Notes under the pieces: generated by a model
Told to the model about the DNA's origin: nothing
What the model saw: only the letters and a program-made list of their open reading frames with translations
Database searches by the model: none
Translations under genes and position numbers: made by a program
In this document: piece by piece, positions 644-64,000 of the stretch
Position numbering within the stretch: position 1 is the first letter of the stretch
Layout of the letters: each line of letters opens with the position of its first letter
DNA from: Patescibacteria group bacterium
Lineage (GTDB): Bacteria > Patescibacteriota > WWE3 > UBA101185 > UBA10185
Direction of reading: 5' to 3'
Length of the DNA stretch: 64,000 nt
NCBI GenBank assembly: GCA_026004595.1
Contig: BPJL01000007.1
Location: 12,460-76,459, forward strand

Positions 644-1861
644 TTAAAACTCTATTATTATTTCCCATTTTTTGTATCTTATCGTGATCCTAATTCTTCT
701 TGTTAGTTTAATATTGTCTTTTACTGCCTTAAGGATCTTTTTTATTTTATCTATAACACCAGCACTAAGTGACTTCTCTAGCCTTTTAGCAACAATCAAC
801 TCCAGAGCATCAAGGTTGGGAACGATTGTTCTTTCTATATCAGCAAACAACATTGAATAAGAGTAAGTCAGCTCTTTATGTAACTCATCAAAGGTACGTT
901 TACTTTTAAGAACATTAACTGTTAAAATAAAGTCCGTGTTAAGTGAACGTATTAGTATCCTTTGTACTACAGGGTCATCATATAACTTATCTGAAGGCAA
1001 AGTTGCTAAATATTGAAAAATACTTATAGCTTTAATCATATCAGGATGATTTAGAAAAGTATTATACATCTGAACGTAGACACTATAAAAATCGCGTATC
1101 GTTTCTGGATGTGTCGGTTTTTTCAACCATTCTATGTATATGTCTATTGTATCGCTGTCTAGTTCATATATCAATGTTAGATATTTCTTTATTAATTCTG
1201 ACAGAATACCAAGTGAACTGATTTTTTCTGCTAATTTCAGCAGCGGACCCGATATGGCATTCTTATTGCCAAATGCGATAAAAAAAACATATGGATTTCC
1301 TAGATTATAAAAAAACTCTGGTGAGTCATTATATATTTCGTGATATTTATCAGTTATTTTACCATTATCATTAATCAGCAATTTAATTAAAGGTGTTGTT
1401 GAGTTTTCTTCGTAGTATGAATTAGCAAGATCAGGATTCTCTATAAGATATGGAAAGTAAAAAACATTTTTGTGCCTGTTACCATCTTCATCGATAAAAT
1501 CAAAATTTTTACCTTTATTCCTAGCAGGAATAATGAATGAAGTCAGCACATCAACTTTCTTCATTTTTTCATTAACGTCGTTTACATTATCGTAATATCC
1601 AACATACATAGAATACAAAAAATATTTAACAAAAAGAACGTATAGTCTATCTTTATATTTATCACCTTCATAGTACTTTTGTCCAACCAATCTTAAAAGA
1701 TTATAAATGGCATAATGATTTCTTTCTGAAATATCGATCTCCTCATTATTACCCAATTGGATTACATCATATTCTTCAAAGGGAAGTCTTTTAGTAAATG
1801 ATTCTATTAAAAATTCTCTTAAAAAGTCATCTGTATTATCAAATGATATTTTCCTCAACAT
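644..1861 (-). CDS. Hypothetical protein (405 aa)
   Basis: Long uninterrupted ORF in AT-rich DNA. No recognisable catalytic motif. Confidence 0.65.
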   Translation of the reverse strand: MLRKISFDNTDDFLREFLIESFTKRLPFEEYDVIQLGNNEEIDISERNHYAIYNLLRLVGQKYYEGDKYKDRLYVLFVKYFLYSMYVGYYDNVNDVNEKMKKVDVLTSFIIPARNKGKNFDFIDEDGNRHKNVFYFPYLIENPDLANSYYEENSTTPLIKLLINDNGKITDKYHEIYNDSPEFFYNLGNPYVFFIAFGNKNAISGPLLKLAEKISSLGILSELIKKYLTLIYELDSDTIDIYIEWLKKPTHPETIRDFYSVYVQMYNTFLNHPDMIKAISIFQYLATLPSDKLYDDPVVQRILIRSLNTDFILTVNVLKSKRTFDELHKELTYSYSMLFADIERTIVPNLDALELIVAKRLEKSLSAGVIDKIKKILKAVKDNIKLTRRIRITIRYKKWEIIIEF

Positions 1862-1984: not shown

Positions 1985-4900
1985 GTGTTAAAAGGGTTTA
2001 AGTTTTCCAAAAACCAATTAAGCCCGGCTATATCCCGTGTGATTTCTATATTATTTTTTGTGAACAGTTTGTGTAAAAAGTGAGCAGTATATACCATCTA
2101 GTGGCCATAAAAACATGCTTTTTACATCGGGAAGTAGTAGGGTAAAAAAGCATGTTTTTAACAGTTTTTGATCAAAGTTTATCACGAGAATAGTTTTTTT
2201 AAAAAAGAGTGTTTAAGAAAGTGTTTAGAAAAGTGCTTAGGAGAATCACTTAATCAAAGTTTGTTTAAGGGTTTAAAGCACACTAAACGTGTCCCGAAGA
2301 CCAATTATCACCAGCTATATCCCGTGTGATTTCTATATTATTTTTTGTGAACAGTTTGTGTAAAAAGTGAGCAGTATATACCATCTAGTGGCCATAAAAA
2401 CATGCTTTTTACATCGGGAAGTAGTAGGGTAAAAAAGCATGTTTTTAACAGTTTTTGATCAAAGTTTTATCACGAGAATAGTTTTTTTAAAAAGACTGTT
2501 TTAGAAAGTGTTTATCGAAAAGTGCTTAGGAGAATCACTTGATCAAAGTTTGTTTAAGGGTTTAAAGCACACTAAACGTGTCCCGAAGACCAATTATCAC
2601 CAGCTACATCCCGTGTGATTTCTATATTATTTTTTGTGAACAGTTTGTGTAAAAAGTGAGCAGTATATACCATCTAGTGGCCATAAAAACATGCTTTTTA
2701 TAACGGGATATACTGGGATAAAAAAGTATGTTTTTGGCGTTTTTTGATCAAGTTTTATCACGAGAATAGTTTTTTTTAAAAAGACTGTTTTAGAAAGTGT
2801 TTATCGAAAAGTGCTTAGGAGAATCACTTAATCAAAGTTTGTTTAAGGGTTTAAAGATCATCAAGCATGTCTCACAGACTAATTATCACCAGCTATATCC
2901 CGTGTGATTTCTATATTATTTTTTTGTGAACAGTTGTGTAAAAAGTGAGCAGTATATACCATCTAGTGGCCATAAAAACATGCTTTTTACATCGGGAAGT
3001 AGTAGGGTAAAAAAGCATGTTTTTAACAGTTTTTGATCAAAGTTTTATCACGAGAATAGTTTTTTTAAAAAGACTGTTTTAGAAAGTGTTTATCGAAAAG
3101 TGCTTAGGAGAATCACTTGATCAAAGTTTGTTTAAGGGTTTAAAGCACACTAAACGTGTCCCGAAGACCAATTATCACCAGCTACATCCCGTGTGATTTC
3201 TATATTATTTTTTGTGAACAGTTTGTGTAAAAAGTGAGCAGTATATACCATCTAGTGGCCATAAAAACATGCTTCTTTCAACGGGATATACTGGGATAAA
3301 AAAGTATGTTTTTAACGTTTTTTGATCAAAGTTTTATCACGAGAATAGTTTTTTTAAAAAAGAGTGTTTAAGAAAGTGTTTAGAAAAGTGCTTAGGAGAA
3401 TCACTTAATCAAAGTTTGTTTAAGGGTTTAAAGATCATCAAGCATGTCTCACAGACTAATTATCACCAGCTATATCCCGTGTGATTTCTATATTATTTTT
3501 TTGTGAACAGTTGTGTAAAAAGTGAGCAGTATATACCATCTAGTGGCCATAAAAACATGCTTTTTACATCGGGAAGTAGTAGGGTAAAAAAGCATGTTTT
3601 TAACAGTTTTTGATCAAAGTTTTATCACCGTCAAAATTATTTTTAAAAAGTCTTTTTAAGAGAGTGTTTATCGAAAAGTGCTTAGGAGAATCACTTGATC
3701 AAAGTTTGTTTAAGGGTTTAAAGCACACTAAACGTGTCTCACAGACCAATTAAGCCCGGCTATATCCCGTGTGATTTCTATATTATTTTTTGTGAACAGT
3801 TTGTGTAAAAAGTGAGCAGTATATACCATCTAGTGGCCATAAAAACATGCTTTTTACATCGGGAAGTAGTAGGGTAAAAAAGCATGTTTTTAACAGTTTT
3901 TGATCAAAGTTTTATCACGAGAATAGTTTTTTTAAAAAGACTGTTTTAGAAAGTGTTTATCGAAAAGTGCTTAGGAGAATCACTTAATCAAAGTTTGTTT
4001 AAGGGTTTAAAGCACACTAAACGTGTCCCGAAGACCAATTATCACCAGCTATATCCCGTGTGATTTCTATATTATTTTTTGTGAACAGTTTGTGTAAAAA
4101 GTGAGCAGTATATACCATCTAGTGGCCATAAAAACATGCTTTTTACATCGGGAAGTAGTAGGGTAAAAAAGCATGTTTTTAACAGTTTTTGATCAAAGTT
4201 TTATCACCGTCAAAATTATTTTTAAAAAGTCTTTTTAAGAGAGTGTTTATAGAAAGTGCTTAGGAGAATCACTTGATCAAAGTTTGTTTAAGGGTTTAAA
4301 GCACACTAAACGTGTCCCGAAGACCAATTATCACCAGCTACATCCCGTGTGATTTCTATATTATTTTTTGTGAACAGTTTGTGTAAAAAGTGAGCAGTAT
4401 ATACCATCTAGTGGCCATAAAAACATGCTTTTTATAACGGGATATACTGGGATAAAAAAGTATGTTTTTGGCGTTTTTTGATCAAGTTTTATCACGAGAA
4501 TAGTTTTTTTTAAAAAGACTGTTTTAGAAAGTGTTTATCGAAAAGTGCTTAGGAGAATCACTTGATCAAAGTTTGTTTAAGGGTTTAAAGATCATCAAGC
4601 ATGTCTCACAGACTAATTATCACCAGCTATATCCCGTGTGATTTCTATATTATTTTTTTGTGAACAGTTTGTGTAAAAAGTGAGCAGTATATACCATCTA
4701 GTGGCCATAAAAACATGCTTTTTACAACGGGATATACTGGGATAAAAAAGCATGTTTTTAACGTTTTTTGATCAAAGTTTATCACGAGAATAGTTTTTTT
4801 TAAAAAAGACTGTTTTAGAAAGGTGTTTATCGAAAAGTGCTTAGGAGAATCACTTGATCAAAGTTTGTTTAAGGGTTTAAAGCACACTAAACGTGTCCCG

Positions 4901-5480
4901 AAGACCAATTATCACCAGCTACATCCCGTATGATTTCTATATTATTTTTTGTGAACAGTTTGTGTAAAAAGTGAGCAGTATATACCATCTAGTGGCCATA
5001 AAAACATGCTTTTTACAACGGGATATACTGGGATAAAAAAGCATGTTTTTGGCGTTTTTTGATCAAGTTTTATGACCGTCAAAACTATTTTTAAAAAGTC
5101 TTTTTAAGAGAGTGTTTATAGAAAGTGCTTAGGAGAATCACTTGATCAAAGTTTGTTTAAGGGTTTAAAGACCACTAAGCGTATAACGCGAACCAATTAT
5201 CACCAGCTATATCCCGTGTATTTTCTATATTATTTTTCTTAAAAAAAACTTATTAAAAACAAGCAATACCATCTAGTGGCCACAGCTTTAGCTCTCAACG
5301 GGAGTTAACGGTGTAAAAAAGTATGTTTTTAACGTTTTTTGATCAAAGTTTATCACGGTCAACAAAACTGTTTAAGCGTCTCACAAACCAATTAAGACCG
5401 ACTATATCACGTGTGTTTTATATTCTTTGCATAAAGCTTTGATATCATGTGGCCATAAAAGCGTGTTTTATCACGAGATA
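1985..5480. repeat. Tandem repeat array 1: ~12 copies of a ~288-290 bp unit (degenerate last copies), non-coding
   Basis: Recurring blocks '...CCCGTGTGATTTCTATATTATTTTTTGTGAACAGTTTGTGTAAAAAGTGAGCAGTATATACCATCTAGTGGCCATAAAAACATGCTTTTT...AAAAAGCATGTTTTTAACAGTTTTTGATCAAAGTTT...' recur with period ~290 (unit starts near 2015, 2303, 2590, 2880, 3170, 3460, 3750, 4040, 4330, 4620, 4910, 5200). Each unit contains a perfect 15-bp inverted repeat AAAAACATGCTTTTT/AAAAAGCATGTTTTT separated by ~21 nt. Confidence 0.95.
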
Positions 5481-5567
5481 TTAAAACTGGATGTGCTTCG
5501 GCGATATCAAAGCGTGTTTTAGGTGGTGCTTATCAAATTATGATTTAAAGTGGATCTTTAAAACACG

Positions 5568-6308
5568 ATGAAAAAAGCCATACTATCTGTTTTTGATTAC
5601 TCAGCTGTACCTCAGTTTTCTCATTTACCCTCTGCTGAAAGAGATTTGAGTCTAGCTTTCAAGATAGCAAAAGAGATATTAAAAATAGATGACATAACTG
5701 TTATCACTGATATCGACGTGACTAGCGGTTACAATATTATTAAACTGGATTACCCTGATAAAACAGCTGTTGTGAGGGAACTCAAAAGGATTGTAAAAAA
5801 CACGAGTAAACCGACTGACGTTTTTGTGTACTTTTCTTGTCACGGTGTTAAAAACGCTCTCTGTTTCTCTAATGAACTTTTTAGTTCAAAAGAGTTTTTT
5901 GATATATTTTTCAATAACGGATTACCCATTGGATCAACCATGCTAGTTGTTTTTGATACCTGTCATTCAGGTAGCATGAGTGATTTTCACTTCAGATATG
6001 ACCCCTTTACTAGGACGATGGAGAAAACAAAAGAGCTACCGACTGGCATCTATTATCCTTTGTCCGTTTCACTTTCAGCATCAGACGATGATAGAAAAGC
6101 AATTTCGACTCATAAAGGGTCGCCTTTTACTTATACGTTATACAGGCTTCTTAATGAACTGGACTGCGGGATAACAATAGAACAGTTGCATGACAGACTA
6201 TATGAAATGTTACCGACTGTTGCAAGGATTATGAACCCTACTATCTGTTCTACATCATCGAGGGAAAGAGCAAAGATACCGTTTTTTCATAATCTGGATA
6301 ACTGTTAA
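5568..6308 (+). CDS. Metacaspase/caspase-like cysteine peptidase (C14 family)
   Basis: Catalytic dyad motifs 'YFSCHGV' (His) and 'VFDTCHSGSM' (Cys, D-x-C-H-S-G as in metacaspases/paracaspases) at the expected spacing (~45 aa). Confidence 0.75.
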   Translation: MKKAILSVFDYSAVPQFSHLPSAERDLSLAFKIAKEILKIDDITVITDIDVTSGYNIIKLDYPDKTAVVRELKRIVKNTSKPTDVFVYFSCHGVKNALCFSNELFSSKEFFDIFFNNGLPIGSTMLVVFDTCHSGSMSDFHFRYDPFTRTMEKTKELPTGIYYPLSVSLSASDDDRKAISTHKGSPFTYTLYRLLNELDCGITIEQLHDRLYEMLPTVARIMNPTICSTSSRERAKIPFFHNLDNC

Positions 6309-6318
6309 GATCTTTTTT

Positions 6319-9300
6319 TTGAAACATCATTTAAATGTTAATAGTAAAATGGACAAAAATTTTTTCGTTGTTACGTTAAGTAGTAATGACTATTTACAGT
6401 CGAAAGAAAGAAACACAATCCCCCCTCTTCCGACAACTGAAAAATCAGAGTTTTATCTCCCTCGTGATTGGGATATGCTTCTCAGTATTTTAAAGAACAG
6501 AGCAAATATGTATATTACTGACTCGTTAAGAACCCAGAAAAATTTATCCGTTTTGAAGAAAGCTATGGGTAACTTGGACTGGCTGAATGATCTTTATAAT
6601 GACCAGTTAAACAATGCAATAAAACAGAATAACTTTGTACTTATAGGAGACATAAAGAATGTACTTGCGACCTTTGCCAAGAAACATCATGTGATTAAAC
6701 TGGATCTTCTTGAGACAATAAACACTAAGATACTTGATATTGTCGATGCGATTTTACAAAAAGAAGAAAACATCGAGTTTCAAAGAAACATTGAACAGTT
6801 AAGGGCTCTAAGAAGTGAAATAAACACTGATATTTTAAGCGAGGTTAACATTAAAGGAGTTGTAGTAGACGTGTCTAACATGATTGGAAGAAAATATGAC
6901 ATGTTAAGAATGGTAAAAACTGAAGACGCAGAAACAGCAAAACTTTTCCTCAGAGTAAGACAACGGTTGGTTGATTTTTTTAGGAAAAAAGGCTGTTCAA
7001 TAAGAACAGTAGGTGGTCTTCAGGCCAGGATAGATGATATAGAAGTGTATCAGTACGATGTTTCTAACAGACATTTAACTAAATTTTTGGAAGAAAACCT
7101 ATATCAAGAAGCCAAAGTTAACACTGATGTTGGAATTAAGCGTGAACGCAAACGCGAACGCGAACGCGAACGCAAGCGTAAACGTAAACTTGAACGTGGA
7201 AAGAAAAAAGAAACCGAACGTAAAGCCAAAGCCAGAGCCAGAGCAGAACGTAAAGCCAAAGCTAAAGCTGAAGCTGACGTTGAAGAGTTAGCCAAATCTG
7301 ACGGTGAAGCTGAAGCATTAGCCAAAGCTGAAGAGTTAGCCAAAGCCAAAGCTGAAGCTGACGGTGATACCGAAGGCGAAGCCAAAGCGTTAGCCAAAGC
7401 TGAAGCCGAAGCGTTAGCCAAAGCTGAAGCTGACGGTGATACCGAAGGCGAAGCCGAAGGCGAAGCCAAAGCGTTAGCCAAAGCTGAAGCCGAAGCGTTG
7501 ACCGGAGCGTTGGATGAAGCGTCACCGTCAGACAAAGACGAAGCCGTAACCAGCGACACTGACAGCGACGCCGGTGCCGAGCCAAAAAGTTTTGGAGAAG
7601 AAGCTATAGAAGAGATCCTCAAGAAATCAGGCGTTTCTTATGAAACACTTGAAGAGATATTTTCTGGTTCTTTAAGTGTGAAAGATGCTTCAAAGTATTT
7701 AAGAGAAGTAATAATCTGTTTACCATCGGCTGAAATATATAACCTGATTAAATCTGCTCAGATAAAGCCGGTGGAGTTTGTTCTCAAGCCGTGGCAGAAA
7801 ACGTTTTACGAGAAAATCATCAAAGGTGAGTCAGTGATTGTTATTTCTTCTACTTCCACTGGTAAAACATTTATAGCCATGTCAAGCATTGAAGCGATAA
7901 TAAGTGACGAAGACTTTGAAAGTAGCGTGTGTTTCATTGCTCCAACTTTTGACCTCGCTTTCCAACTTTTCAACAACTCATTTATAACCATGATGAACCC
8001 TATGAAAAAGATTGGATTTATAACGGAAAAGGCAATCTTCCTGCCTGAAAATGTTGACAGTGTTAAAATCTGGATTGGAACACCTGTACCCGTTTGGACT
8101 TTCTTCAAAACAAACAACATAACTGCTGAAAGAATATTTATCGACGAGATACATACTATAGCAACCAACTTGGGAGACAAAATCATTTCAGAAGCGATCT
8201 ACAACATTGCCAAAACGGGAAAACAGTTAGTGGGACTTTCTGCTACGATAAGGAACGAAGACTTAACAAGACTGATTGAGTTTCTTGACAAAAACATAAT
8301 AATTATCAGAGGACATGAAGAAAGACCTGTTAGACTGGAACGTGAAAGACTAAACCAGCTCTATGAAGATCCAGAGGAACTGTTTTGGTTTATTAAAAAC
8401 GAACTTCTTGGTAAAGAGAGAACACCTGCTGTGATTTTTGAAGAGGATGATAAAACGTGTCTTGAACAGTACAGAAAGTTGGTAGAGTGGCTGGATAAAA
8501 CCAATTCACATGAATTTGGAGAGTGTATAAATATGGGAAGAGAGTTTGAAATGGAGTTAAACGATCAGCTTGAACGTTTGAAAGCGTACGATGATCAAGA
8601 AGATGATATAAAGAACCTAGCTATATCCAAAATGAAAAAGAGGTTCAGAAACAAGATGGTAAACCTTATAGCAAAAGTGCTAAGAGGCCATTATAACATA
8701 AAGATTAAGCTTACACAAGGTGAGATTGATACGCTGAAAAGTATACTTTTTCCACCTAAGACAAAAAAACCCAAAAAGATTATCATCAAAAAGGTAAAAA
8801 AGAAGGAAGAGTCATCGTCTTCAGAAGAGACGATTGACGAAAGTAAACTTTCTATCGAGGAAATGCGAAGACTGAGAAAAAAGAGAAAGAAAAAAGAGAA
8901 AGAGGAGCGAATTCGTAAAAAGGAGAAGGAACAAGAAGAACTTGAAGAGATAGAAAGACTAAAGACGGCAGAGAAAGAAAAATCAAGAAGGATTCTTTTA
9001 TCAACCATAAGCAACCAAGCCGTACACAATATATCATTAGAAAACATTGAGTATTTTCCCGTTTGCATAAGGGACATTCTAAGAGACTACAATTCAAATA
9101 GACCTTTTTATGATGAGGTTAGTCACTTCTTTAAAATAAGTGAGGGTATTGACAGAGAAGACTTTATCATGATGAAAAAATCACTAGAAGATAAAGTTGC
9201 GATTTTTACTAGCAGAAAGAGTAAAGGTGAGAATGAGTCCTACAAAGAACCAGATAAAGAACTGTTTATACAGTCACCGAAAAAGAGAAAGTCAGACATA

Positions 9301-10128
9301 TACGACAATCTTGTTTCCGCGGAAAAGATAAGAAAATCTGAACTTGTTGACCTTGTTACACTTCTGATAAAAGGGTTAAAGTTTGGCGTTGGAATCATTT
9401 TACCATCTCTTCCTTTTGTTTTTTATGTCTTTATCATCAAGCTTCTAGCACAGAAAAAGATTCAGCTTATTTTTACTACTAAAGTCTTTTCTGTTGGTAT
9501 AGACTATCCGATCAAAACAGTGGTGATAAGAACAAGAAACGCAAAAAACATAGAGTTGGTACAGATGGAGGGAAGAGCAGGCAGGTGGAGAAGTCAAGAC
9601 GTTGGTTTTGTTTATCACTGGCAGGACTTACCTCACGTTGGAGATACTGAAGTTTTTGAGTCACTTGAGTTTCCATCAAAGGCTGGAACCGGGATGAGAC
9701 TGGGTGACGCGTTTGCCATAGCCGAAGAGATAGAAAAGAACAGGTTTCATGGAGAGACCGTGGGAATGGGTTCTAACTCTATTTTAAGCGCTCTTAACAG
9801 ACTTGATGGAAAAGATGAAGGCGGTTCAGTTGATATGCTAAAGATAAGGAGAACACTTGGAGGAATAAACAATCATTTTATCGTAGAAGATGTAGAAGAG
9901 TACATGGTAGTGATTGATGTTGTTGAACTGATTATCAACAACAAGATAACTCCAGATATAAAGGACAACAAATATGACCATATAAAGAAGATACAGAAAT
10001 ACAAACTTCTTATCCAGGAGTTATACATAAGAACATCAAATACAAAAAATCTTAACTACCTTGAACTTCTGAAATCAGTTTATGAACTGTTCCACAGGGT
10101 AGAAAAGAAGCTATTGTTAATACGATAA
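6319..10128 (+). CDS. Superfamily-2 DExH-box helicase with an N-terminal unknown domain and two low-complexity (RE/AKAEA and K/E-rich) insertions
   Basis: Motif I 'SSTSTGKTF', motif II 'IFIDEIHT' (DEIH), motif III 'LSATIRN' (SAT), motif V 'FTTKVFSVGIDYP', motif VI 'QMEGRAGRW'. It starts 10 nt after the metacaspase stop on the same strand. Confidence 0.75.
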   Translation: MKHHLNVNSKMDKNFFVVTLSSNDYLQSKERNTIPPLPTTEKSEFYLPRDWDMLLSILKNRANMYITDSLRTQKNLSVLKKAMGNLDWLNDLYNDQLNNAIKQNNFVLIGDIKNVLATFAKKHHVIKLDLLETINTKILDIVDAILQKEENIEFQRNIEQLRALRSEINTDILSEVNIKGVVVDVSNMIGRKYDMLRMVKTEDAETAKLFLRVRQRLVDFFRKKGCSIRTVGGLQARIDDIEVYQYDVSNRHLTKFLEENLYQEAKVNTDVGIKRERKRERERERKRKRKLERGKKKETERKAKARARAERKAKAKAEADVEELAKSDGEAEALAKAEELAKAKAEADGDTEGEAKALAKAEAEALAKAEADGDTEGEAEGEAKALAKAEAEALTGALDEASPSDKDEAVTSDTDSDAGAEPKSFGEEAIEEILKKSGVSYETLEEIFSGSLSVKDASKYLREVIICLPSAEIYNLIKSAQIKPVEFVLKPWQKTFYEKIIKGESVIVISSTSTGKTFIAMSSIEAIISDEDFESSVCFIAPTFDLAFQLFNNSFITMMNPMKKIGFITEKAIFLPENVDSVKIWIGTPVPVWTFFKTNNITAERIFIDEIHTIATNLGDKIISEAIYNIAKTGKQLVGLSATIRNEDLTRLIEFLDKNIIIIRGHEERPVRLERERLNQLYEDPEELFWFIKNELLGKERTPAVIFEEDDKTCLEQYRKLVEWLDKTNSHEFGECINMGREFEMELNDQLERLKAYDDQEDDIKNLAISKMKKRFRNKMVNLIAKVLRGHYNIKIKLTQGEIDTLKSILFPPKTKKPKKIIIKKVKKKEESSSSEETIDESKLSIEEMRRLRKKRKKKEKEERIRKKEKEQEELEEIERLKTAEKEKSRRILLSTISNQAVHNISLENIEYFPVCIRDILRDYNSNRPFYDEVSHFFKISEGIDREDFIMMKKSLEDKVAIFTSRKSKGENESYKEPDKELFIQSPKKRKSDIYDNLVSAEKIRKSELVDLVTLLIKGLKFGVGIILPSLPFVFYVFIIKLLAQKKIQLIFTTKVFSVGIDYPIKTVVIRTRNAKNIELVQMEGRAGRWRSQDVGFVYHWQDLPHVGDTEVFESLEFPSKAGTGMRLGDAFAIAEEIEKNRFHGETVGMGSNSILSALNRLDGKDEGGSVDMLKIRRTLGGINNHFIVEDVEEYMVVIDVVELIINNKITPDIKDNKYDHIKKIQKYKLLIQELYIRTSNTKNLNYLELLKSVYELFHRVEKKLLLIR
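7140..7520 (+). repeat. Coding microsatellite/low-complexity tract inside the helicase gene ((CGCGAA)n then GCCAAAGCTGAAGC-type repeats encoding RERERE... and AKAEAEALAKAEA...)
   Basis: Directly visible hexamer and ~27-nt imperfect tandem repeats. They generate the spurious antisense ORFs 7104..7622 and 7262..7585 in the track. Confidence 0.8.
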
Positions 10129-22855: not shown

Positions 22856-23194
22856 GATTTAAGTTTAATTTATAATTAGAATATGAATCAATGCGGATAG
22901 TTGTTTTGTTTAAATGAACGCGTTTGTCATATTTAGGAGAAGGTGTACCTGTTCAGTTCCAATCGGACTGCTTCAGGAAAGAATAGAAAACGGTGAGTCG
23001 GTACCAGGCTGTGATAAAATGTGTTGTAAACTTAACATCCTTCACGCCCCTTTCTATTTTGTCGTCAACGTTGATGATGAGAGACTGGTTGTTAAAAAAG
23101 ACACAGGTATGGCAAGAAGAGAAGAGTCAACACCAGACTATGAAATCAAAGCACCAAAAATAGGATCCATAAAGCTTTAAACAGACTTTTGTTG

Positions 23195-25890
23195 ACTTCT
23201 TCTATCGTGATAAACTTTGATCAAAAAAAGCCAAAAACATACTTTTTTATTCCGTTATCACCCGTTGAGAAAAGCATGTTTTCATGGCAACATATATACT
23301 ACTCGGTTCGCAAAGCGTCGCAAAGCGTAACAAGTTTTTACGCAAGCGTTACAAAAATTAAAACAAAAAACACACGGATATAGTTGGGCTTAATTGGTTT
23401 TTGGGATACGCTTAGTTATCAAACAAACCTTGATCAAGTGTTTCTTTGAAGCTTGCACTGTTAAACCCTTTCTAAAACAAATTTTTTTAAGTTTGTTTAT
23501 CGTGATAAAACTTGATCAAAAAACGTTAAAAACATGCTTTTTTATCCCTTTATCACCCGTTGAGAAAAGCATGTTTTCATGGCCACTAGATGGTATATAC
23601 TGCTCAGTTTTAACAAGTTTTTTTAAAAGAATTAAGACAAAAAACACACGGGATATAGCCGGGCTTAATTGGTCCGCGTGACATGCTTGATTTTCAAACA
23701 AACCTTGATCAAGTGATTCTCCTCATCTCACGTTAAACCCTTTCTAAAACAGTCTTTTAAAACATTTGTTGTCAGTGATAAAACTTGATCAAAAACCGTT
23801 AAAAACATGATTTTTTATCCCTGTTTTTCCCGTTCAGAAAAGCATGTTTTTATAGCCACTAGATGGTATATACTGCTCAGTTTTAACAAGTTTTTTTTAA
23901 GAAAATTAAGACAAAAAACACACATGATATAGCCGGGCTTAATTGGTCTGTGAATAATCTTAAACACTCAAACAAACATTGATCAAGTGTTTCTTCGAAG
24001 CTTGCCCCGTTAAACCCTTTCTTAAAGCAGTCTTTTAAATATTTTTTATCCGTGATAAAACTTTGATCAAAAAACGTCAAAAACATGCTTTTTTAACAGG
24101 ATACACTGGGATAAAAAAGTATGTTTTTATAGCCACTAGATGATATATACTACTCGTTTTTAACAAACTGTTAAGAAAAAATAAGACATAAAACACACGG
24201 GACATATTCGGGCTTAATTGGTTTGCGATACACACTTGTGAGACTTTAAGACACTTAAACAAACCTTGATCAAGTGATTCTCCTCATCTCACGATAAACC
24301 CTTTCTAAAACAGTCTTTTTAAAAAAAACCTATTCTCGTGATAAACTTTGAACAAAAACCGTTAAAAACATGATTTTTTATCCCGTTAACTCCCGTTAAG
24401 AAAAGCATGTTTTTATAGCCACTAGATGGTATATACTGCTCAGTTTTAACAAGTTTTTTTAAGAAAATTAAGACAAAAAACACACATGATATAGCCGGGC
24501 TTAATTGGTCTGTGAATAACTTTAAACCCTTAAACAAACATTGATCAAGTGTTTCTTCGAAGCTTGCACTGTTAAACCCCTTTCTAAAACAGTCTTTTTA
24601 AAAAATCTATTCTCGTGATAAAACTTTGATCAAAAAACACCAAAAACATGCTTTTTTATCCCAGTTTATCCCGATGTAAAAAGCATGTTTTTATGGCCAC
24701 TAGATGGTATATACTGCTCGTTTTTTATAAGTTTTTTTTAAAAAATTAAGACAAAAAACACACGTGATATAGCCGGGCTTAATTGGTCTGCGTGATACTC
24801 TAGACACGCTTAGTTATCAAACAAACTTTGATCAAGTGATTCTCCTTATCTCACGTTAAACCATTTCTAAAACATTCTTTTTAAAAAAACCTATTCTCGT
24901 GATAAAACTTTGATCAAAAAATGCTAAAAACATGCTTTTTTATCCCAGTTTATCCCGATGTAAAAAGCATGTTTTTATGGCCACTAGATGGTATATACTG
25001 CTCGTTTTTTATAAGTTTTTTTAAAAGAATTAAGACATAAAATAACCCGTGATATAGTCGGGCTTAATTGGTTCGCGGGACATGCTTAGTGAGCTTTAAA
25101 CAAACCTTGATCAAGTGATTCTAAGCTTACCCGTTAAACCCTTTCTGAAACAGTCTTTTTAAAAAACTTATTTCTGTGATAAAACTTTGATCAAAAAATG
25201 CTAAAAACATGCTTTTTTATCCCAGTTTATCCCGATGTAAAAAGCATGTTTTTATGGCCACTAGATGGTATATACTGCTCGTTTTTTATAAGTTTTTTTA
25301 AAAGAATTAAGACATAAAATAACCCGTGATATAGTCGGGCTTAATTGGTTCGCGGGACATGCTTAGTGAGCTTTAAACAAACCTTGATCAAGTGATTCTA
25401 AGCTTACCCGTTAAACCCTTTCTGAAACAGTCTTTTTAAAAAACTTATTTCTGTGATAAAACTTTGATCAAAAAACACCAAAAACATACTTTTTTATCCC
25501 AGTTCATCCCGATGTAAAAAGCATGTTTTCATAGCCACTAGATGGTATATACTACTCAGTTTTTACAAAGTGTTTTAAAAGAATTAAGACAAAAATTACA
25601 CGGGATATAGTCGGGCTTAATTGGTCTGTGAATAATCTTAAACACTCAAACAAACATTGATCAAGTGTTTCTTTGAAGCTTGCACTGTTAAACCCTTTCT
25701 AAAACAGTCTTTTAAATATTTTTTATCCGTGATAAAACTTGATCAAAAAACGCCAAAAACATACTTTTTCACCCTACTACTTCCCGTTGTAAAAAGCATG
25801 TTTTCATGGCCACTAGATGGTATATACTATTCGTTTTCTATAAGGTTTTTTAAAAGAATTAAAACAAAAACACAAGGGATATGACAAACG
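23195..25890. repeat. Tandem repeat array 2: ~9-10 copies of the same ~290-bp unit family, in inverse orientation relative to array 1
   Basis: Units contain 'AAAAGCATGTTTT(C/T)ATGGCCACTAGATGGTATATACTGCTC', the reverse complement of the array-1 core. Period ~285-295. The many 60-95 aa ORFs listed here in the track are repeat artefacts. Confidence 0.95.
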
Positions 25891-34047: not shown

Positions 34048-34668
34048 ATGTTTAAGGTAAAAGTTTTAAAAAAGAGTGCTATAGACACTTCAATTCTAAA
34101 GAAAAGAAAGGTACACTTTACCTCCAGTGATATAAAGCCGTTCGCCGACCAAAAGCTTGAGTGGAAAAACGAGGAACTGCCTGATGAACTAAAGAAGCTT
34201 TGCGAACAGGTTAAGTTAATTTTCTCTTTACAGGACGAGGTAAAGGGCTATAACGTACGTTTCATTCCCCCATCAAGGACTGTTAACAGGGGTAAGACTG
34301 TAATCATAGAAAAGGCCACCGGAATGACTGTTTGCTCTAGGGTTGTCATAACACTTGGCTCAATGGAGTCAATTGGTTTAAGGCTAGAGAACGAGGAAGC
34401 GGAAGTTGTAATTCCTTCTAACTCGGGCTTTCAAATTCCACTGTTTATGGTAGCAGCGTTTGATATAAAAGTTGATGACAAAGACAGCTTTAAAATAAAA
34501 ATCGGTTCTAAAGAGAAAACAGTTGCAAAAAGACCAAACAGACGCTACATAATGGTGATAGACTTTCTAACCAACGACACAACTCTTAACAACGTTTTAA
34601 CAAAGTCTGGTTTATCGGAAAATACAATCAAGGCAATTAGAAGAAACCTTTTTGACAAAGGCAAATGA
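34048..34668 (+). CDS. Hypothetical protein (206 aa)
   Basis: ORF. Its last ~110 nt are duplicated at 36770-36880 upstream of the second BspA-like gene. Confidence 0.6.
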   Translation: MFKVKVLKKSAIDTSILKKRKVHFTSSDIKPFADQKLEWKNEELPDELKKLCEQVKLIFSLQDEVKGYNVRFIPPSRTVNRGKTVIIEKATGMTVCSRVVITLGSMESIGLRLENEEAEVVIPSNSGFQIPLFMVAAFDIKVDDKDSFKIKIGSKEKTVAKRPNRRYIMVIDFLTNDTTLNNVLTKSGLSENTIKAIRRNLFDKGK

Positions 34669-34699
34669 TTGTTTTTTTAAAAAAAAGACAAGCCAAAAA

Positions 34700-36880: not shown

Positions 36881-36912
36881 GATTGTTTTTAAAAAAAAGA
36901 CAAGCCAAAAAA

Positions 36913-47394: not shown

Positions 47395-49995
47395 ATCCCG
47401 CTATAGCCCGTTAAACCCTTTCTAAAACAAATTTTGTTATCAATGATCAAAAAACGCTAAAAACATGCTTTTTTATCCCGATATCACCCGTTTTAAAAAG
47501 CATGTTTTCATAGCCACTAGATGATATATACTACTGTGTTTCGCAAAGCGTTTTAAAAGAAATAAGGCAAAAAACACACGTGAAGTGTCTGGTGATAAAT
47601 GGTCTTTGAGAAACATTTGATAGCTTTAAACTCTCAAACAAACTTTGATCAATTGTCTCACCGAGGCGTGTTTCGTTAAACACTTTCTAAAACAGTCTTT
47701 TAAATAATTGTTATCTATGATAAAACTTTGATCAAAAAATGCCAAAAACATACTTTTTTATCCTAGTTTATCCCGATGAGAAAAGCATGTTTTCATGACC
47801 ACTAGATGGTATATACTACTCACTTTTACGCAAGCGTTACAAGTTTTCTACAAAGAATTAAAATAAAAAACACACGGGATATAGTCGGGCTTAATCGGTT
47901 TTGGAAAATGCTTGTGATACTTTGAAAAACACTTGGTTATCAAACAAACGATTCACCGACGCATGTTTCGTTAAACACTTTCTAAAACAGTCTTTTAAAA
48001 AAATTGTTGTCAGTGATAAAACTTGATCAAAAAACACCAAAAACATGCTTTTTTATACCTGTTTATCCCGTTAAGAGCTAAAGCTATGGCCACTAGATGG
48101 TATTACTATGTTTCGCAAAGCGTAACAAGGTTTTTTATAAAAAATAAGATATAAATCACACATGATATAGCCGGTGATAATTAGTCTGTGAGACATGTTT
48201 GATAATCTTTAAACCCTTAAACAAACTTTGATCAAGTGTCTCACTGAGGCACGTTTCGATAAACACTTTCTAAAACAGTCTTTTTTAAAAAAACTATTCT
48301 CGTGATAAACTTTGATCAAAAAACGTTAAAAACATACTTTTTTATCCCAGTATATCCCGTTATAAAAAGCATGTTTTTATGGCCACTAGATGGTATATAC
48401 TGCTCACTTTTTACACAACTGTTCACAAAAAATAAGATATAAAACACACGGGATGTAGCTGGTGATAATTGGTCTTCGGGACACGTTTAGTGTGCTTTAA
48501 ACCCTTAAACAAACTTTGATCAAGTGTCTCACTGAGGCACGTTTCGATAAACACTTTCTAAAACAGTCTTTTTTAAAAAAACTATTCTCGTGATAAACTT
48601 TGATCAAAAAACGTTAAAAACATACTTTTTTATCCCAGTATATCCCGTTATAAAAAGCATGTTTTTATGGCCACTAGATGGTATATACTGCTCACTTTTT
48701 ACACAACTGTTCACAAAAAATAAGATATAAAACACACGGGATGTAGCTGGTGATAATTGGTCTTCGGGACACGTTTAGTGTGCTTTAAACCCTTAAACAA
48801 ACTTTGATCAAGTGTCTCACTGAGGCACTTTTCGATAAACACTTTCTAAAACAGTCTTTTTTAAAAAAACTATTCTCGTGATAAACTTTGATCAAAAAAC
48901 GTTAAAAACATACTTTTTTATCCCAGTATATCCCGTTATAAAAAGCATGTTTTTATGGCCACTAGATGGTATATACTGCTCACTTTTTACACAAACTGTT
49001 CACAAAAAATAATATAGAAAACACACGGGATGTAGCTGGTGATAATTGGTCTTCGGGACACGTTTAGTGTGCTTTAAACCCTTAAACAAACTTTGATCAA
49101 GTGTCTCACTGAGGCACGTTTCGATAAACACTTTCTAAAACAGTCTTTTTTAAAAAAACTATTCTCGTGATAAACTTTGATCAAAAAACGTTAAAAACAT
49201 ACTTTTTTATCCCAGTATATCCCGTTATAAAAAGCATGTTTTTATGGCCACTAGATGGTATATACTGCTCACTTTTTACACAAACTGTTCACAAAAAATA
49301 ATATAGAAAACACACGGGATATAGCTGGTGATAATTGGTCTTCGGGACACGTTTAGTGTGCTTTAAACCCTTAAACAAACTTTGATCAAGTGTCTCACTG
49401 AGGCACTTTTCGATAAACACTTTCTAAAACAGTCTTTTTTAAAAAAACTATTCTCGTGATAAACTTTGATCAAAAAACGCCAAAAACATACTTTTTTTAA
49501 CGGGATACACCGGGATAAAAAAGCATGTTTTTATGGCCACTAGATGGTATATACTGCTCACTTTTTACACAAACTGTTCACAAAAAATAAGATATAAATC
49601 ATACGGGATGTAGCCGGGCTTAATCGGTTTTGGAAAATGCTTGTGAACTTTAAACCAAACGTGCATCAAGTGATTCCGACGCATGTTTCGTTAAACAAGT
49701 TTCTAAAACATTTGTTGTCAGTCATAAAACTTGATCAAAAAACGTTAAAAACATGCTTTTTTATCCCAATATCACCCGTTGTAAAAAGCATGTTTTCATA
49801 GCCGCTAGATGGTATATACTACTCGTTTTTACGCAAGCGTTAACAAAAAATTAAAATAAAATTACACGGGATATAGTCGGGCTTAATTGGTTTTCGGGAC
49901 ATGCTTGATTTTACCGAAATGTTTTGTTAAACCCTTTCTAAAACATACTTTTTATCCCTTTATCACCCGTTGAAAGAAGCATGTTTTTATGGCTG
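47395..49995. repeat. Tandem repeat array 3: ~9 copies of the ~290-bp unit family (same orientation as array 2), including 4 near-identical homogenised units (48390-49570)
   Basis: 'AAAAAGCATGTTTTTATGGCCACTAGATGGTATATACTGCTCACTTTTTACACAA...' recurs with period ~290. The last degenerate unit supplies the stop codon of gene 49987..51606. Confidence 0.95.
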
Positions 49996-51606
49996 ATGCT
50001 GTATGTTTAACTTATCGTAAAAGTCCTGGGGTAAATCTGGTAGTTCTACATCTTCGTAAACGGGATTGTCTGGTATGTTAGTCTTGTCGTTAACAACTTT
50101 TACTGTCCCTTTTATATGCAAGTCTCCTATAAAATATTCTTCCTCATTGTCTGCATAAAATATGTACAGTGTTCCCTTCTTTTCTATTACCGGGTGATTA
50201 AGTGTTATTAAAAACCTTGTTCCCTCTTTCGAAGAAAAGGCTATTATCTTCTCTGGGGGTTCTTCGTAGTAGTAAACTGGATTAAGCAGGTTAAGTGAAA
50301 AGTAAACTCCATTTTTATCCATATAGATACTGTCTCTTGCTCTTACCATAATTCTTTTTGAGTAGTTTTTCTCTAACAGCTCCTGATCAATCTTTGTTTC
50401 TATTTCTCCCTCTGGCATCTCTCCAAAGATATCAACGATTGATCTGTCGATATGCTTTCTGATGTTTTCATCATAATGATAAAGCTTTAATAGTGTTACC
50501 AGATCAGATGTTTCGGCTTTATCATTTTTTTCTTTCCATTTCTCACGACTGGAAAGCCTGTACTTTTCAAGAAAGCTTTCTCCCTCGTCTATCACTGAAG
50601 GAAATTTCCTTAAGAGTGGCTCAGACTTTTCTATTATTGCCACTATTGCTGCTCCGAGTAGTTTGTTTTCCTCATACCTTTCATACCAGTCGTATAGAAA
50701 CGAAGCACTGTCGATTGAAATCTTTTTCTTGAAACTGAGAACAAAGTCTCCTCTTGATGTTACCATATTATCATTTATCATGTTTCTCTTCTTTAGTCTC
50801 TTTAGAGACTTTAAGCAGTAGTATTCATCAAACACTGTTTTCGGGTCTATTTTAGTCTTAAACAACTCCAGTATTCTAATGTCATGTGATTTTACTACCT
50901 CTTTCTTTTTCAGATAAACAATCTTTTTGTAAAAGTCTTTGGGCATCATTCTGTAGCAGAAGCCTTTCGTTAGTATCGCTGCTCTGCTTTTTATCGAAAC
51001 TCTACAGGCTATTCTGTTAAACTGATAGACGCTACCCGTGTCGGAAACGTTAATTTCGTTTTCCAGCATAAGATCAAACAGTCCCGTTACTGATTCTAAT
51101 TCAACGTTTTCCAAGAAGTCAGTTGAAACAACAAGTTTAAACTTTTCACTGTCCTGTTTAAGTATTTCAAGAGTTATTGATATTGGTGTTTTTATGCTTA
51201 TAAAGTGACTTGTTAAGTCCTTAAACTTTGGAAACACCATTTCGCTTGGAACGATAACAAGCCATAGTTCACCCGGTTTCCCCCTTTCTTCAATAAACCT
51301 TTTTATGGTATCAATGGAATCCCTGAAAATAATATCGTTCTCTGTAGAAAAATAGTACCTGTCATGATAGATCATCTCTATGTTTTTTTTCACACTTGGT
51401 TTCACCTTGTTCAAATTAACTCCCCTTGACTTAAGTAGTTTTATTACCATTTCACCATCAGCTGTTTTTAGCAGGTTATCAGTGTAAGTGTACTCATTGT
51501 CAACTGAGTCTGATAGTATTTTCTCCTTGAGTCTATCAACCGATATTGATCCTTCAACACCTAAAGCCTTTTTCAGCAAAACTACTGTTTCACTTGGTTC
51601 TATCAT
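49987..51606 (-). CDS. Hypothetical protein (539 aa)
   Basis: Long ORF. Its 3' end (…NIQHQP*) lies inside the terminal repeat unit. Confidence 0.65.
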   Translation of the reverse strand: MIEPSETVVLLKKALGVEGSISVDRLKEKILSDSVDNEYTYTDNLLKTADGEMVIKLLKSRGVNLNKVKPSVKKNIEMIYHDRYYFSTENDIIFRDSIDTIKRFIEERGKPGELWLVIVPSEMVFPKFKDLTSHFISIKTPISITLEILKQDSEKFKLVVSTDFLENVELESVTGLFDLMLENEINVSDTGSVYQFNRIACRVSIKSRAAILTKGFCYRMMPKDFYKKIVYLKKKEVVKSHDIRILELFKTKIDPKTVFDEYYCLKSLKRLKKRNMINDNMVTSRGDFVLSFKKKISIDSASFLYDWYERYEENKLLGAAIVAIIEKSEPLLRKFPSVIDEGESFLEKYRLSSREKWKEKNDKAETSDLVTLLKLYHYDENIRKHIDRSIVDIFGEMPEGEIETKIDQELLEKNYSKRIMVRARDSIYMDKNGVYFSLNLLNPVYYYEEPPEKIIAFSSKEGTRFLITLNHPVIEKKGTLYIFYADNEEEYFIGDLHIKGTVKVVNDKTNIPDNPVYEDVELPDLPQDFYDKLNIQHQP

Positions 51607-63999: not shown

Positions 64000-64000
64000 C

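What the first reader, a model, noticed from the sequence alone, without database searches (positions are those of the whole stretch)
2396..2446. Conserved hairpin-capable element in every repeat unit: 15-bp perfect inverted repeat AAAAACATGCTTTTT / AAAAAGCATGTTTTT with a 21-nt variable loop
Arms at 2396-2410 and 2432-2446 are exact reverse complements, and the same arms recur in each unit of all three arrays. In arrays 2 and 3 one arm often reads AAAAACATACTTTTTT, giving a G·T/mismatch. The loop varies (CGGGAAGTAGTAGGGTA, CGGGATATACTGGGATA, CGGGAGTTAACGGTGTA) while the arms are conserved. That is the signature of a selected stem-loop: a DNA cruciform or origin element, a protein-binding palindrome, or a small structured RNA.
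Basis: seen in the sequence. Interest (0 to 1): 0.55.

Follow-up and report, generated by a model that had tools for sequence, protein, structure and literature searches.

The report
Palindrome core of giant-virus repeat arrays
The hairpin-capable inverted repeat is real, and it is the centre of roughly 280-bp non-coding units stacked in tandem arrays about every 20 kb in an uncharacterised giant-virus-like genome, an architecture already known as "homologous regions" (hrs) in other large DNA viruses; base pairing itself is not shown to be selected, but two copies carry an inverted loop, so the arms have interacted at the DNA level.

Summary
Observation confirmed. Arms 2396-2410 and 2432-2446 are exact reverse complements with a 21-nt spacer. 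The arm motif gives 64 matches at up to 2 mismatches, against 1.2 expected. Both arms are present in 30 of about 33 units in three arrays: 2002-5561 (+), 23177-25885 (-) and 47401-49998 (-). A fourth array starts just beyond the window.

- There are no compensatory changes: 0 of 16 pairs. Arm variants are one-sided.
- The non-palindromic box just 5' of the hairpin is more conserved than the arms.
- Two units keep the right arm without the left.
- The loop is not free. It carries CGGGA...GGGATA, which also occurs inverted about 85 nt upstream.

New findings:
- Two units have the loop inverted between the arms ("flip-flop").
- A 101-bp core is equally conserved within and between arrays (0.87-0.90), while flanks fall to 0.67.
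- There are no solo copies, no Rfam or tRNA hit, no conserved ORF, and no hairpins at gene 3' ends generally.

The contig is an NCLDV-like genome deposited as a Patescibacteria MAG.

Best reading: hr-type cis-acting arrays, anatomically closest to WSSV hrs, whose palindromic core is a protein-binding or origin/enhancer module. This is a new member of a known kind, of moderate interest.

The parts
2396..2410 (+). Left arm AAAAACATGCTTTTT of the hairpin in the unit named in the finding
2411..2431 (+). 21-nt spacer/loop ACATCGGGAAGTAGTAGGGTA. CGGGA and GGG(A)T(A) are conserved and the centre varies.
2432..2446 (+). Right arm AAAAAGCATGTTTTT
2373..2473 (+). 101-bp conserved central domain of the unit (AGTATATACC...TTTATCAC). 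It holds the 5' box, the hairpin and the first TTGATCAA palindrome.
   Evidence: Identity is 0.87-0.90 within and between arrays, against 0.665-0.85 for the flanks; per-column profile
2373..2395 (+). Box AGTATATACCATCTAGTGGCCAT, the most conserved stretch of the unit. It is not part of the palindrome.
   Evidence: 15-mers at 0.98-0.99 identity
2315..2328 (+). Upstream box CTATATCCCGTGTG, an inverted copy of the loop motif ACGGGATATA
2490..2502 (+). Third arm-like motif AAAAGACTGTTTT, in the same orientation as the right arm and conserved in the units
   Evidence: (I4)
2455..2462 (.). TTGATCAA palindrome, first of two per unit (the second is at 2539-2546)
2002..5561 (+). Array 1: 13 units of ~289 bp (11 full, 2 degenerate), lying between divergent gene starts (644-1861 on - and 5568-6308 on +)
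23177..25885 (-). Array 2: 10 units of ~277 bp, between convergent gene ends
47401..49998 (-). Array 3: 10 units plus a partial unit, between convergent gene ends
24079..24128 (-). Flipped hairpin in array 2. The loop is inverted and the G/A arm variant is swapped too (left CATAC, right GCATG).
   Evidence: the opposite-strand profile hit scores 30.3 bits against ~10 for ordinary units
49482..49532 (-). Flipped hairpin in array 3. The loop is inverted and the arm variants are not swapped.
   Evidence: 4 mismatches to the consensus as reverse complement, 15 forward; 38.3 bits on the opposite strand
5316..5330 (+). Right arm of a unit whose left arm is replaced by AGCTTTAGCTCT. A second such unit has its right arm at 48039-48053.
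5451..5474 (+). Degenerate terminal unit with the hairpin collapsed to one arm (GGCCATAAAAGCGTGTTTTATCAC)
49939..49989 (-). Edge hairpin of array 3. The TAA stop codon of gene 49987-51606 (-) overlaps the first bases of the left arm.
644..1861 (-). ORFan gene whose start abuts array 1. It is a paralog of the gene whose start abuts the fourth array (62972 to beyond 64000, - strand).

Best explanation
The hairpin-capable palindrome is the centre of the conserved core of an hr-type ('homologous region') element.

Anatomy (shown). Non-coding 277-289-bp units are stacked head to tail in arrays of 10-13 copies. The arrays are intergenic, occur in both orientations, and are spaced roughly 17-24 kb apart in an NCLDV-like genome. 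Each unit is a dense cluster of short symmetric or repeated motifs:
- three copies of A4-5-N5-T4-5 (the two arms plus AAAAGACTGTTTT);
- two TTGATCAA palindromes;
- the CGGGAT(A) motif in the loop and, inverted, upstream;
- the box ATACCATCTAGTGGCCAT;
- A/T tracts spaced about 10-11 bp apart.

Function (inferred). The core acts in cis on duplex DNA as a binding platform for one or more viral, probably dimeric, DNA-binding proteins. It would serve as a replication origin and/or transcriptional enhancer, as proposed for the hrs of baculoviruses and WSSV.

Role of the hairpin. The arms can also pair within one strand when the DNA is single-stranded, for example on a replication template. That this has happened is shown by two copies in which the segment between the arms is inverted while the flanks are not. 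The mechanism for those inversions, template switching or recombination across the arms, is inferred. The same processes, together with unequal crossing-over and gene conversion within arrays, can keep the two arms alike without any selection on pairing.
For: - Tandem arrays at three loci plus a fourth just beyond the window.
- No conserved ORF: unit length is not a multiple of 3, and the 33-46-aa ORFs of array 1 are lost in arrays 2 and 3.
- The core is equally conserved within and between arrays while the flanks diverge, which argues for constraint on the core and not just homogenisation.
- Spacer length is fixed at 21 nt.
- A third arm-like motif and other dyads are present in every unit.
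- The loop inversions are confirmed in two ways. The flipped loops carry their own substitutions, so they are not assembly copies of neighbouring units.
- The hairpin is stable as ssDNA on both strands: about -13 kcal/mol for perfect copies and -6 to -10 for variant copies.
- No solo copies exist in about 55 kb of unique sequence.
- The anatomy matches the published description of WSSV hrs: 250-300-bp units, 3-8 per hr, a conserved central domain with an imperfect palindrome, variable flanks, intergenic, both orientations (PMC2855118).
- Baculovirus hrs with palindromic cores act as origins and enhancers (PMC4535591).
Against: - No functional data of any kind.
- No homologous arrays were found in any public collection scanned, so there is no comparative test.
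- No candidate binding protein was identified.
- No covariation.
- Arm centres are 36 bp apart, about 3.4 helical turns, which puts the two half-sites on nearly opposite faces of B-DNA. That is awkward for a simple dimer.
- A 21-nt spacer disfavours cruciform extrusion from duplex DNA (general knowledge).
- The arrays show no consistent relation to gene orientation.
- The turning points in cumulative GC skew near arrays 2 and 3 coincide with changes in gene strand, so they are not independent evidence for origins.
Confidence: 0.5

Rival explanations
1. Selfish or neutral satellite DNA, as proposed for the M1/M2 repeats of pithoviruses. The units spread and homogenise by recombination or by transposition of a MITE-like element. 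The palindrome is a relic or a recombination substrate, and the core is conserved only because the amplification machinery recognises it.
For: - Giant-virus genomes can carry 13-24% of such repeats with no known function (PMC10664404). Arrays make up about 13% of this window.
- Copy-number structure and higher identity within arrays fit unequal crossing-over.
- Relatives carry unrelated short non-coding arrays with AT-rich hairpins: L031 13532-14141 and L036 11302-11792.
- Units without a left arm persist.
Against: - The unit is not palindromic as a whole: 15-bp arms in a 289-bp unit, against 47-54-bp TIRs covering most of M1/M2.
- No solo copies and no recognisable target-site duplication.
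- Conservation of the core between arrays, while the flanks diverge, is not expected from homogenisation alone.
Confidence: 0.25
2. Each unit, or each array, is transcribed, and the hairpin acts in RNA as a small structured RNA or a processing signal.
For: - The three well-populated one-sided arm variants all give G.U on the unit-sense strand and A.C on the other.
- Sense-strand hairpins are slightly more stable (-10.6 against -9.6 kcal/mol).
- A TATATA-containing box lies about 20 nt upstream, and T-runs follow the hairpin.
Against: - No Rfam family at gathering score and no tRNA. Only a sub-threshold mir-1 match, on both strands.
- The whole unit does not fold better than shuffles (z = -1.2).
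- No compensatory changes, and C.T, C.A and A.C mismatches also occur.
- Three of three wobble-compatible transitions has p of about 0.125 under chance.
- The flipped loops put the loop motif on the other strand.
Confidence: 0.1
3. The hairpin is a transcription-termination or 3'-end-formation signal, like the 'hairpin rule' of Mimiviridae, and has been multiplied in arrays.
For: - Arrays 2 and 3 lie between convergent gene ends.
- The edge hairpin of array 3 overlaps the stop codon of gene 49987-51606.
- Hairpins lie about 50-90 nt after the stop codons flanking arrays 2 and 3.
- Mimiviridae mRNAs end at palindromic hairpins (PMC4402537).
Against: - Gene 3' ends in this window carry no hairpins. 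The mean best perfect stem is 5.5 nt, against 5.3 in coding controls, and MFE is no lower.
- Array 1 and the fourth array abut gene starts, not ends.
- Ten to thirteen copies of a 289-bp unit are not needed for termination.
Confidence: 0.07
4. The hairpins are active cruciform or hairpin sites for replication initiation or for resolution by a junction resolvase, so the flip-flop is a by-product of their normal working cycle, as at poxvirus and ASFV telomeres.
For: - Flip and flop orientations of the loop exist, with the inversion limited to the palindrome.
- One flip includes the arm variant and the other does not, which implies different crossover points.
- A collapsed single-arm copy sits at an array edge.
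Against: - Only 2 of 30 copies are flipped, and they share a derived loop variant (GGATACAC), so a single old event could account for both.
- A 21-nt loop disfavours cruciform extrusion.
- No resolvase or telomere resolvase was identified among the window's genes.
Confidence: 0.08

Closest known systems
WSSV (Nimaviridae) homologous regions (hrs)
   Same: Dispersed intergenic arrays in both orientations. Units of 250-300 bp, several per array. A highly conserved central domain containing a palindrome, flanked by more variable domains (PMC2855118).
   Different: The virus lineage is unrelated: this is an NCLDV-like genome with its own RNA polymerase, topoisomerase II, Erv1 and TFIIS. No sequence homology is expected, and none was tested. 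Arrays here are longer (10-13 units). The palindrome is perfect in many copies, has a long 21-nt spacer, and shows loop inversion.
Baculovirus hrs
   Same: Dispersed tandem repeats with a palindromic core. In baculoviruses these are shown to be origins in transient assays and IE-1-dependent enhancers (PMC4535591, PMC13513840).
   Different: Baculovirus units are about 60-70 bp with a 24-30-bp imperfect palindrome and no long spacer. No IE-1-like protein was identified here. No function was tested here.
Pithovirus M1/M2 palindromic repeats and the direct repeats of pithovirus-like MAGs
   Same: Giant-virus genomes with intergenic clusters of AT-rich repeats making up 13-24% of the sequence. The period of an M1-M2 pair is about 280 bp. 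Within-region copies are more alike, and recombination-driven expansion has been proposed (PMC10664404).
   Different: M1 and M2 are palindromic over almost their whole length (TIRs of 54 and 47 bp, 37-bp centre), have a putative TA target-site duplication, and M1 occurs alone. Here the arms are 15 bp in a 289-bp non-palindromic unit, and there are no solo copies and no target-site duplication.
Flip-flop terminal hairpins of poxviruses, ASFV and parvoviruses
   Same: Two inverted-complement orientations of the sequence between inverted-repeat arms.
   Different: Those hairpins are at genome termini and both forms are about equimolar. Here the hairpins are internal, only 2 of 30 are flipped, and the flipped state looks evolutionarily fixed in those units. 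This comparison rests on general knowledge, not on a tool result.
Mimiviridae 'hairpin rule' palindromes
   Same: AT-rich palindromes in a giant-virus genome, some just after stop codons (PMC4402537).
   Different: There the hairpins are gene-specific, unique sequences at most gene ends. This window shows no such rule, and here the palindrome is one repeated sequence inside arrays.

Membership tests
hr-type dispersed repeat regions of large dsDNA viruses (architectural class) | Several arrays dispersed in intergenic regions, in both orientations | tested here: met
   Arrays at 2002-5561 (+), 23177-25885 (-) and 47401-49998 (-), with a fourth beyond 64 kb (+). No long ORF lies inside them.
hr-type dispersed repeat regions of large dsDNA viruses (architectural class) | Tandem direct repeat units, each with a conserved core that contains a palindrome, flanked by more variable sequence | tested here: met
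   Core identity 0.87-0.90 against flanks 0.665-0.85. Both arms of the palindrome are present in 30 of about 33 units.
hr-type dispersed repeat regions of large dsDNA viruses (architectural class) | Cis function as a replication origin and/or enhancer, bound by a viral factor | not testable with these tools
   Needs replication, reporter and binding assays. No IE-1-like or other candidate protein was found by Pfam among the window's genes.
Pithovirus M1/M2 MITE-like repeats | Unit palindromic over most of its length (TIRs of 47-54 bp around a 37-bp centre) | tested here: not met
   Only 15-16-bp arms, and the flanks do not extend the palindrome. The whole unit has a folding z-score of -1.2.
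Pithovirus M1/M2 MITE-like repeats | Solo copies and a putative TA target-site duplication | tested here: not met
   A profile search finds units only inside the arrays. No duplication is evident at array edges.
Pithovirus M1/M2 MITE-like repeats | Sequence similarity to M1/M2 | not tested
Mimiviridae-type 3'-end hairpins ('hairpin rule') | Palindromic hairpins directly downstream of most genes | tested here: not met
   Across 40 gene ends the mean best perfect stem is 5.5 nt, against 5.3 in coding controls.
Structured RNA family (Rfam) or tRNA | Match to a curated covariance model at gathering score, or covariation that supports the stem | tested here: not met
   No gathering-score hits and no tRNA. 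mir-1 scores 24.8 bits against a 45.6 cut-off, on both strands. Zero compensatory pairs.
Flip-flop hairpin termini / resolution sites | Both orientations of the inter-arm segment exist | tested here: inconclusive
   2 of 30 copies are flipped. Whether both orientations coexist at one unit in the population cannot be seen from an assembly.
CRISPR array | Short identical repeats separated by unique spacers of similar length | tested here: not met
   The whole 277-289-bp period is repeated, and the only variable stretch is about 7 nt in the loop.

The most novel reading that the evidence does not exclude
The internal palindromes are working hairpin sites. During replication each hr unit would extrude or fold into a hairpin that is used for strand switching, priming, or cleavage by a junction resolvase. 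The loop would then flip at a measurable rate, giving an internal counterpart of the flip-flop telomeres of poxviruses and ASFV, repeated about 10 times per array and every ~20 kb. Under this reading the adjacent lineage-specific ORFan paralogs (644-1861 and 62972 to beyond 64000) would be candidates for the factor that recognises the arrays.
Probability: 0.1. Interest if true: 0.7.

Novelty: new member of a known kind. Interest (0 to 1): 0.38.

Why it matters
Replication origins and cis-regulatory DNA are almost unknown for giant viruses. This hr-like element has a sharply defined 101-bp core with a fixed-geometry palindrome, in a deeply divergent NCLDV-like lineage (RPB1 at most 44% identical to anything found). 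That core is a concrete sequence to test for origin, enhancer or protein-binding activity.

The loop inversions are direct sequence evidence that short inverted repeats in such arrays interact in vivo. This bears on how repeat arrays in giant viruses evolve. It also warns against reading perfect complementarity as selection for a stem.

In practice, such arrays break short-read assemblies: the Logan contigs end at them. This contig was deposited as a Patescibacteria MAG.

Tried and rejected
1. Homologous arrays elsewhere. I scanned exact and degenerate hairpin patterns in viral contigs, genome contigs and metagenome contigs, and ran blastn against phages. Only single, chance AT-rich hairpins turned up, and none shares the flanking core.

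2. The rest of the 79,304-bp source contig. Exact-protein look-ups mostly failed. Logan contigs from DRR290133 stop at the arrays, but one of them revealed the fourth array.

3. Covariation. None was found, and the test has low power.

4. RNA family, tRNA, and bacterial promoter/terminator scans. Nothing meaningful.

5. Coding potential. There are only short ORFs that are not conserved between arrays.

6. Hairpin-rule terminators. Rejected.

7. The ORFan gene next to arrays 1 and 4.
- No Pfam hit.
- No homologs beyond three paralogs of the same lineage.
- The AlphaFold model is unusable (pLDDT 36), so no fold search was run.
- The third paralog could not be located on a contig.

8. Promoter motif search. 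TTGTGAA is 14-fold enriched upstream of genes and is present in the unit, but it rests on only 5 genes, so I did not rely on it.

9. A/T-tract phasing. Peaks at about 10-12, 20 and 34 bp appear in arrays but not elsewhere. However, the arrays are effectively one sequence repeated, so this is weak evidence.

10. Lineage name. Cluster look-ups gave no virus names. The IMG/VR relatives are all GVMAG contigs at 34% identity or less.

11. L012, which has many arm-like hits, turned out to be an unrelated AAAACATGTTTT repeat.
Full report
**1. The observation**

The sequence is as described. The repeat finder gives arms at 2395-2410 and 2432-2447, 16 nt, 100% complementary, with 21 nt between them. 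The 15-nt arm AAAAACATGCTTTTT has 64 matches at up to 2 mismatches on the two strands of the window, against 1.2 expected and a maximum of 5 in 100 shuffles. All but one of these matches lie in three tandem arrays, found by Tandem Repeats Finder at 2013-5237 (period 289), 23349-25882 (period 277) and 47444-49901 (period 289).

A profile of the unit run back over the window sets the array limits and shows no copy anywhere else:
- Array 1: 2002-5561, + strand, 13 units, the last two degenerate.
- Array 2: 23177-25885, - strand, 10 units.
- Array 3: 47401-49998, - strand, 10 units plus a partial one.

A Logan contig that overlaps the window's right end finishes in unit sequence. A fourth array, in + orientation, therefore starts about 1 kb beyond the window.

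As single-stranded DNA the element folds at -14.4 kcal/mol, z = -4.4. Perfect copies give about -13 kcal/mol on either strand and variant copies -6 to -10.

**2. What surrounds it**

The window is from an NCLDV-like genome. It encodes:
- RNA polymerase large-subunit pieces, RPB5 and TFIIS;
- topoisomerase II;
- an Erv1/Alr thiol oxidoreductase;
- an XRN-type exonuclease and a NUDIX protein;
- a DEAD-box helicase;
- a caspase-like peptidase;
- two DUF285-repeat proteins.

The RPB1 N-terminal protein is 100% identical to an NCBI entry from a 79,304-bp contig of a MAG labelled 'Patescibacteria group bacterium' (KatS3mg101). The next best match outside this contig is 42% identical. IMG/VR relatives are giant-virus MAG contigs at 34% identity or less. 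The source is therefore a mis-binned, deeply divergent giant-virus-like genome.

The arrays are non-coding. There is no ORF of 100 aa or more. The 33-46-aa ORFs that recur in array 1 are not kept in arrays 2 and 3. The arrays make up about 13% of the window.

**3. Anatomy of the unit**

I aligned 30 units.
- Mean column identity is 0.83 for the whole unit, 0.92 for the left arm, 0.97 for the right arm and 0.80 for the loop.
- The best-conserved 15-mers (0.98-0.99) lie in the non-palindromic box AGTATATACCATCTAGTGGCCAT, just 5' of the hairpin.
- A 101-bp central domain (2373-2473 in the unit of the finding) is 0.87-0.90 identical both within and between arrays. The rest of the unit falls from 0.74-0.85 within arrays to 0.665-0.76 between arrays.

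Homogenisation alone would treat core and flanks alike, so this pattern argues for constraint on the core.

The unit is full of short symmetric or repeated motifs:
- a third arm-like motif, AAAAGACTGTTTT, 42 nt after the right arm;
- two TTGATCAA palindromes;
- TGGCCA;
- the loop motif ACGGGATATA, also present inverted about 85 nt upstream (CTATATCCCGTGTG).

The loop is not freely variable. CGGGA at its 5' side and GGGAT(A) at its 3' side are conserved, and about 7 central positions vary. Loop length is 21 nt in nearly all copies.

**4. Is pairing selected?**

I counted the 16 pairs of the stem on the 30 copies, 20 of them distinct.
- 95.8% of cells are standard pairs, but column shuffles give 96.0%.
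- No pair changes on both sides.
- Three pairs vary on one side only, each giving G.T on the unit-sense strand. The main case is G13.T50, the CATGC/GTATG variant present in 13 units.
- Other variants break pairs: C.T in two units, C.A at the loop-proximal end in several, and A.C in one.

Two units have a different sequence in place of the left arm yet keep a perfect right arm. The last degenerate unit of array 1 has the palindrome collapsed to one arm.

Variation is low, so the test has little power. It shows that selection on pairing is not demonstrated, not that it is absent.

**5. A new observation: loop inversion**

In two units, 24079-24128 in array 2 and 49482-49532 in array 3, the segment between the arms is the reverse complement of the usual loop while the flanks keep their orientation.
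- The array 3 loop has 4 mismatches to the consensus as reverse complement and 15 in the forward sense.
- The array 2 loop is 20 nt. By my own reading of the output, once a 1-nt length difference is allowed for, it has 3 mismatches as reverse complement, against 17 forward.
- Independently, the unit profile hits these two hairpins on the opposite strand at 30 and 38 bits, against about 10 bits for ordinary units.
- In the array 2 case the G/A arm variant is swapped as well (left CATAC, right GCATG). In the array 3 case it is not. The crossover points therefore differ, or later conversion occurred.
- Both flipped loops carry substitutions seen in no forward loop, so they are evolutionary events and not assembly artefacts.

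Inversion of a spacer between short inverted repeats is the expected product of intramolecular template switching or of recombination across the arms (general knowledge). It shows that the arms have met at the DNA level. The same processes can keep arms complementary without selection.

**6. Rival functions tested**

*RNA.* There is no Rfam family at gathering score and no tRNA. A sub-threshold mir-1 match appears on both strands. The whole unit folds no better than shuffles. The G.U-only pattern of the three common variants is suggestive but has p of about 0.125.

*Terminator.* The edge hairpin of array 3 overlaps the stop codon of gene 49987-51606, and arrays 2 and 3 lie between convergent gene ends. 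However, gene 3' ends in general carry no hairpins (mean best stem 5.5 nt against 5.3 in controls). Array 1 and the fourth array abut gene starts.

*MITE-like satellite, as in pithoviruses.* Those units are palindromic nearly end to end (TIRs of 54 and 47 bp), M1 occurs alone, and they have a putative TA duplication (PMC10664404). Here the arms are 15 bp in a non-palindromic 289-bp unit, with no solo copies. A neutral or selfish satellite nevertheless remains the main rival, because giant-virus genomes are known to carry such loads. Relatives of this virus also carry unrelated short arrays with AT-rich hairpins.

**7. Comparison with what is known**

The closest anatomical match is the hr of WSSV: dispersed intergenic regions in both orientations, 250-300-bp units, and a highly conserved central domain with an imperfect palindrome flanked by variable domains. 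These are proposed to be origins and enhancers (PMC2855118). Baculovirus hrs are the functionally tested prototype.

Membership in the architectural class is met on every feature that can be tested from sequence. Function and the bound factor cannot be tested here. No sequence relative of the unit was found in any collection scanned.

**8. Verdict**

The element is best described as the palindromic core of hr-type arrays in a novel giant-virus-like lineage. It most likely acts as a cis-acting protein-binding, origin or enhancer module (confidence about 0.5). A selfish satellite is the main rival (about 0.25).

The 'selected stem-loop' argument is not supported as stated. The flip-flop copies are the most interesting new fact, and they leave open, at low probability, an active-hairpin mechanism.

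Novelty: a new member of a known kind. Interest: moderate.

Noticed in passing
window 45532-47370, 52422-54845, 55109-57496: The RNA polymerase largest subunit is split as in archaea. A C-terminal (A''-like) piece lies at 45532-47370. There are two adjacent, diverged N-terminal (A'-like) paralogs, 44% identical to each other. Array 3 and two other genes separate the C-terminal piece from the N-terminal copies.
   Followed up: partly
whole window (source contig of 79,304 bp): The contig is deposited at NCBI as part of a 'Patescibacteria group bacterium' MAG (KatS3mg101; locus tags 0807 and 0845). Its gene content is that of a giant virus, and its closest relatives are GVMAG contigs. It is probably a mis-binned viral contig.
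   Followed up: partly
window 644-1861 (-) and 62972-64000 (-); L002 6421-8370: A lineage-restricted ORFan family has three paralogs and no other homologs among 1.8 billion representative proteins. The two members that could be placed each have their start codon abutting a + oriented array (arrays 1 and 4). For the fourth array, unit-like sequence begins about 25 nt from the ATG, so the promoter must lie inside the repeat.
   Followed up: partly
L031 13525-14141: A relative (RPB1 39% identical) has a 149-bp x 4 non-coding array just downstream of its RPB1 gene. Unit 1 has a 23-nt stem (..CACAACTTTAAA / TTTAAAGTTGTG..). Unit 2 has a perfect 15-nt stem of a different sequence (TTTTTGATATTTAAA / TTTAAATATCAAAAA). 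Units 3-4 are chimeras with the left arm of one type and the right arm of the other, and cannot pair.
   Followed up: partly
window 34652-36742 and 36883-39801: Two adjacent large paralogous genes (79% identical) are built of 72-bp coding repeats matching DUF285, with 14 and 18 domain hits. They account for the long-period tandem-repeat rows at 34.9-39.8 kb.
   Followed up: no
window 5568-6308: A caspase-like (Peptidase_C14) gene lies immediately downstream of array 1.
   Followed up: no
window, upstream of most ORFs: Start codons are typically preceded directly by A-rich strings (..TTAAAATG..ATAAAATG..TTTAAATG). This suggests very short leaders and a promoter or initiator element at the ATG, as in some cytoplasmic large DNA viruses. 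TTGTGAA is 14-fold enriched within 100 nt upstream of genes (5 genes) and also occurs in every repeat unit.
   Followed up: partly
window 7138-7496: Low-complexity coding repeats with periods of 6-72 nt (AAGCTGAAGC.., Lys/Ala/Glu-rich) lie inside the 1269-aa DEAD-box helicase gene 6319-10128.
   Followed up: no
L012 (SMVA01407105.1) 400-770, 1140-1700, 2090-2520: An unrelated metagenome contig is packed with AAAACATGTTTT-type palindromes in clusters. It was picked up only because of arm-like words and has no homology to the unit core.
   Followed up: no
window 2002-5180 versus the rest of the window: AA/TT dinucleotides in the arrays show autocorrelation peaks at about 10-12, 20 and 34 bp that are absent from the rest of the window. 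Phased A/T tracts could mean intrinsically curved DNA. The arrays are one sequence repeated, so this is weak evidence.
   Followed up: partly
L036 11236-11269: In the closest IMG/VR relative (RPB1 34% identical), a perfect 16-nt palindrome sits about 10 nt after the RPB1 stop codon, and short non-coding arrays (141-bp and 132-bp units) flank the next gene. That virus may follow a hairpin rule, which this window does not.
   Followed up: no
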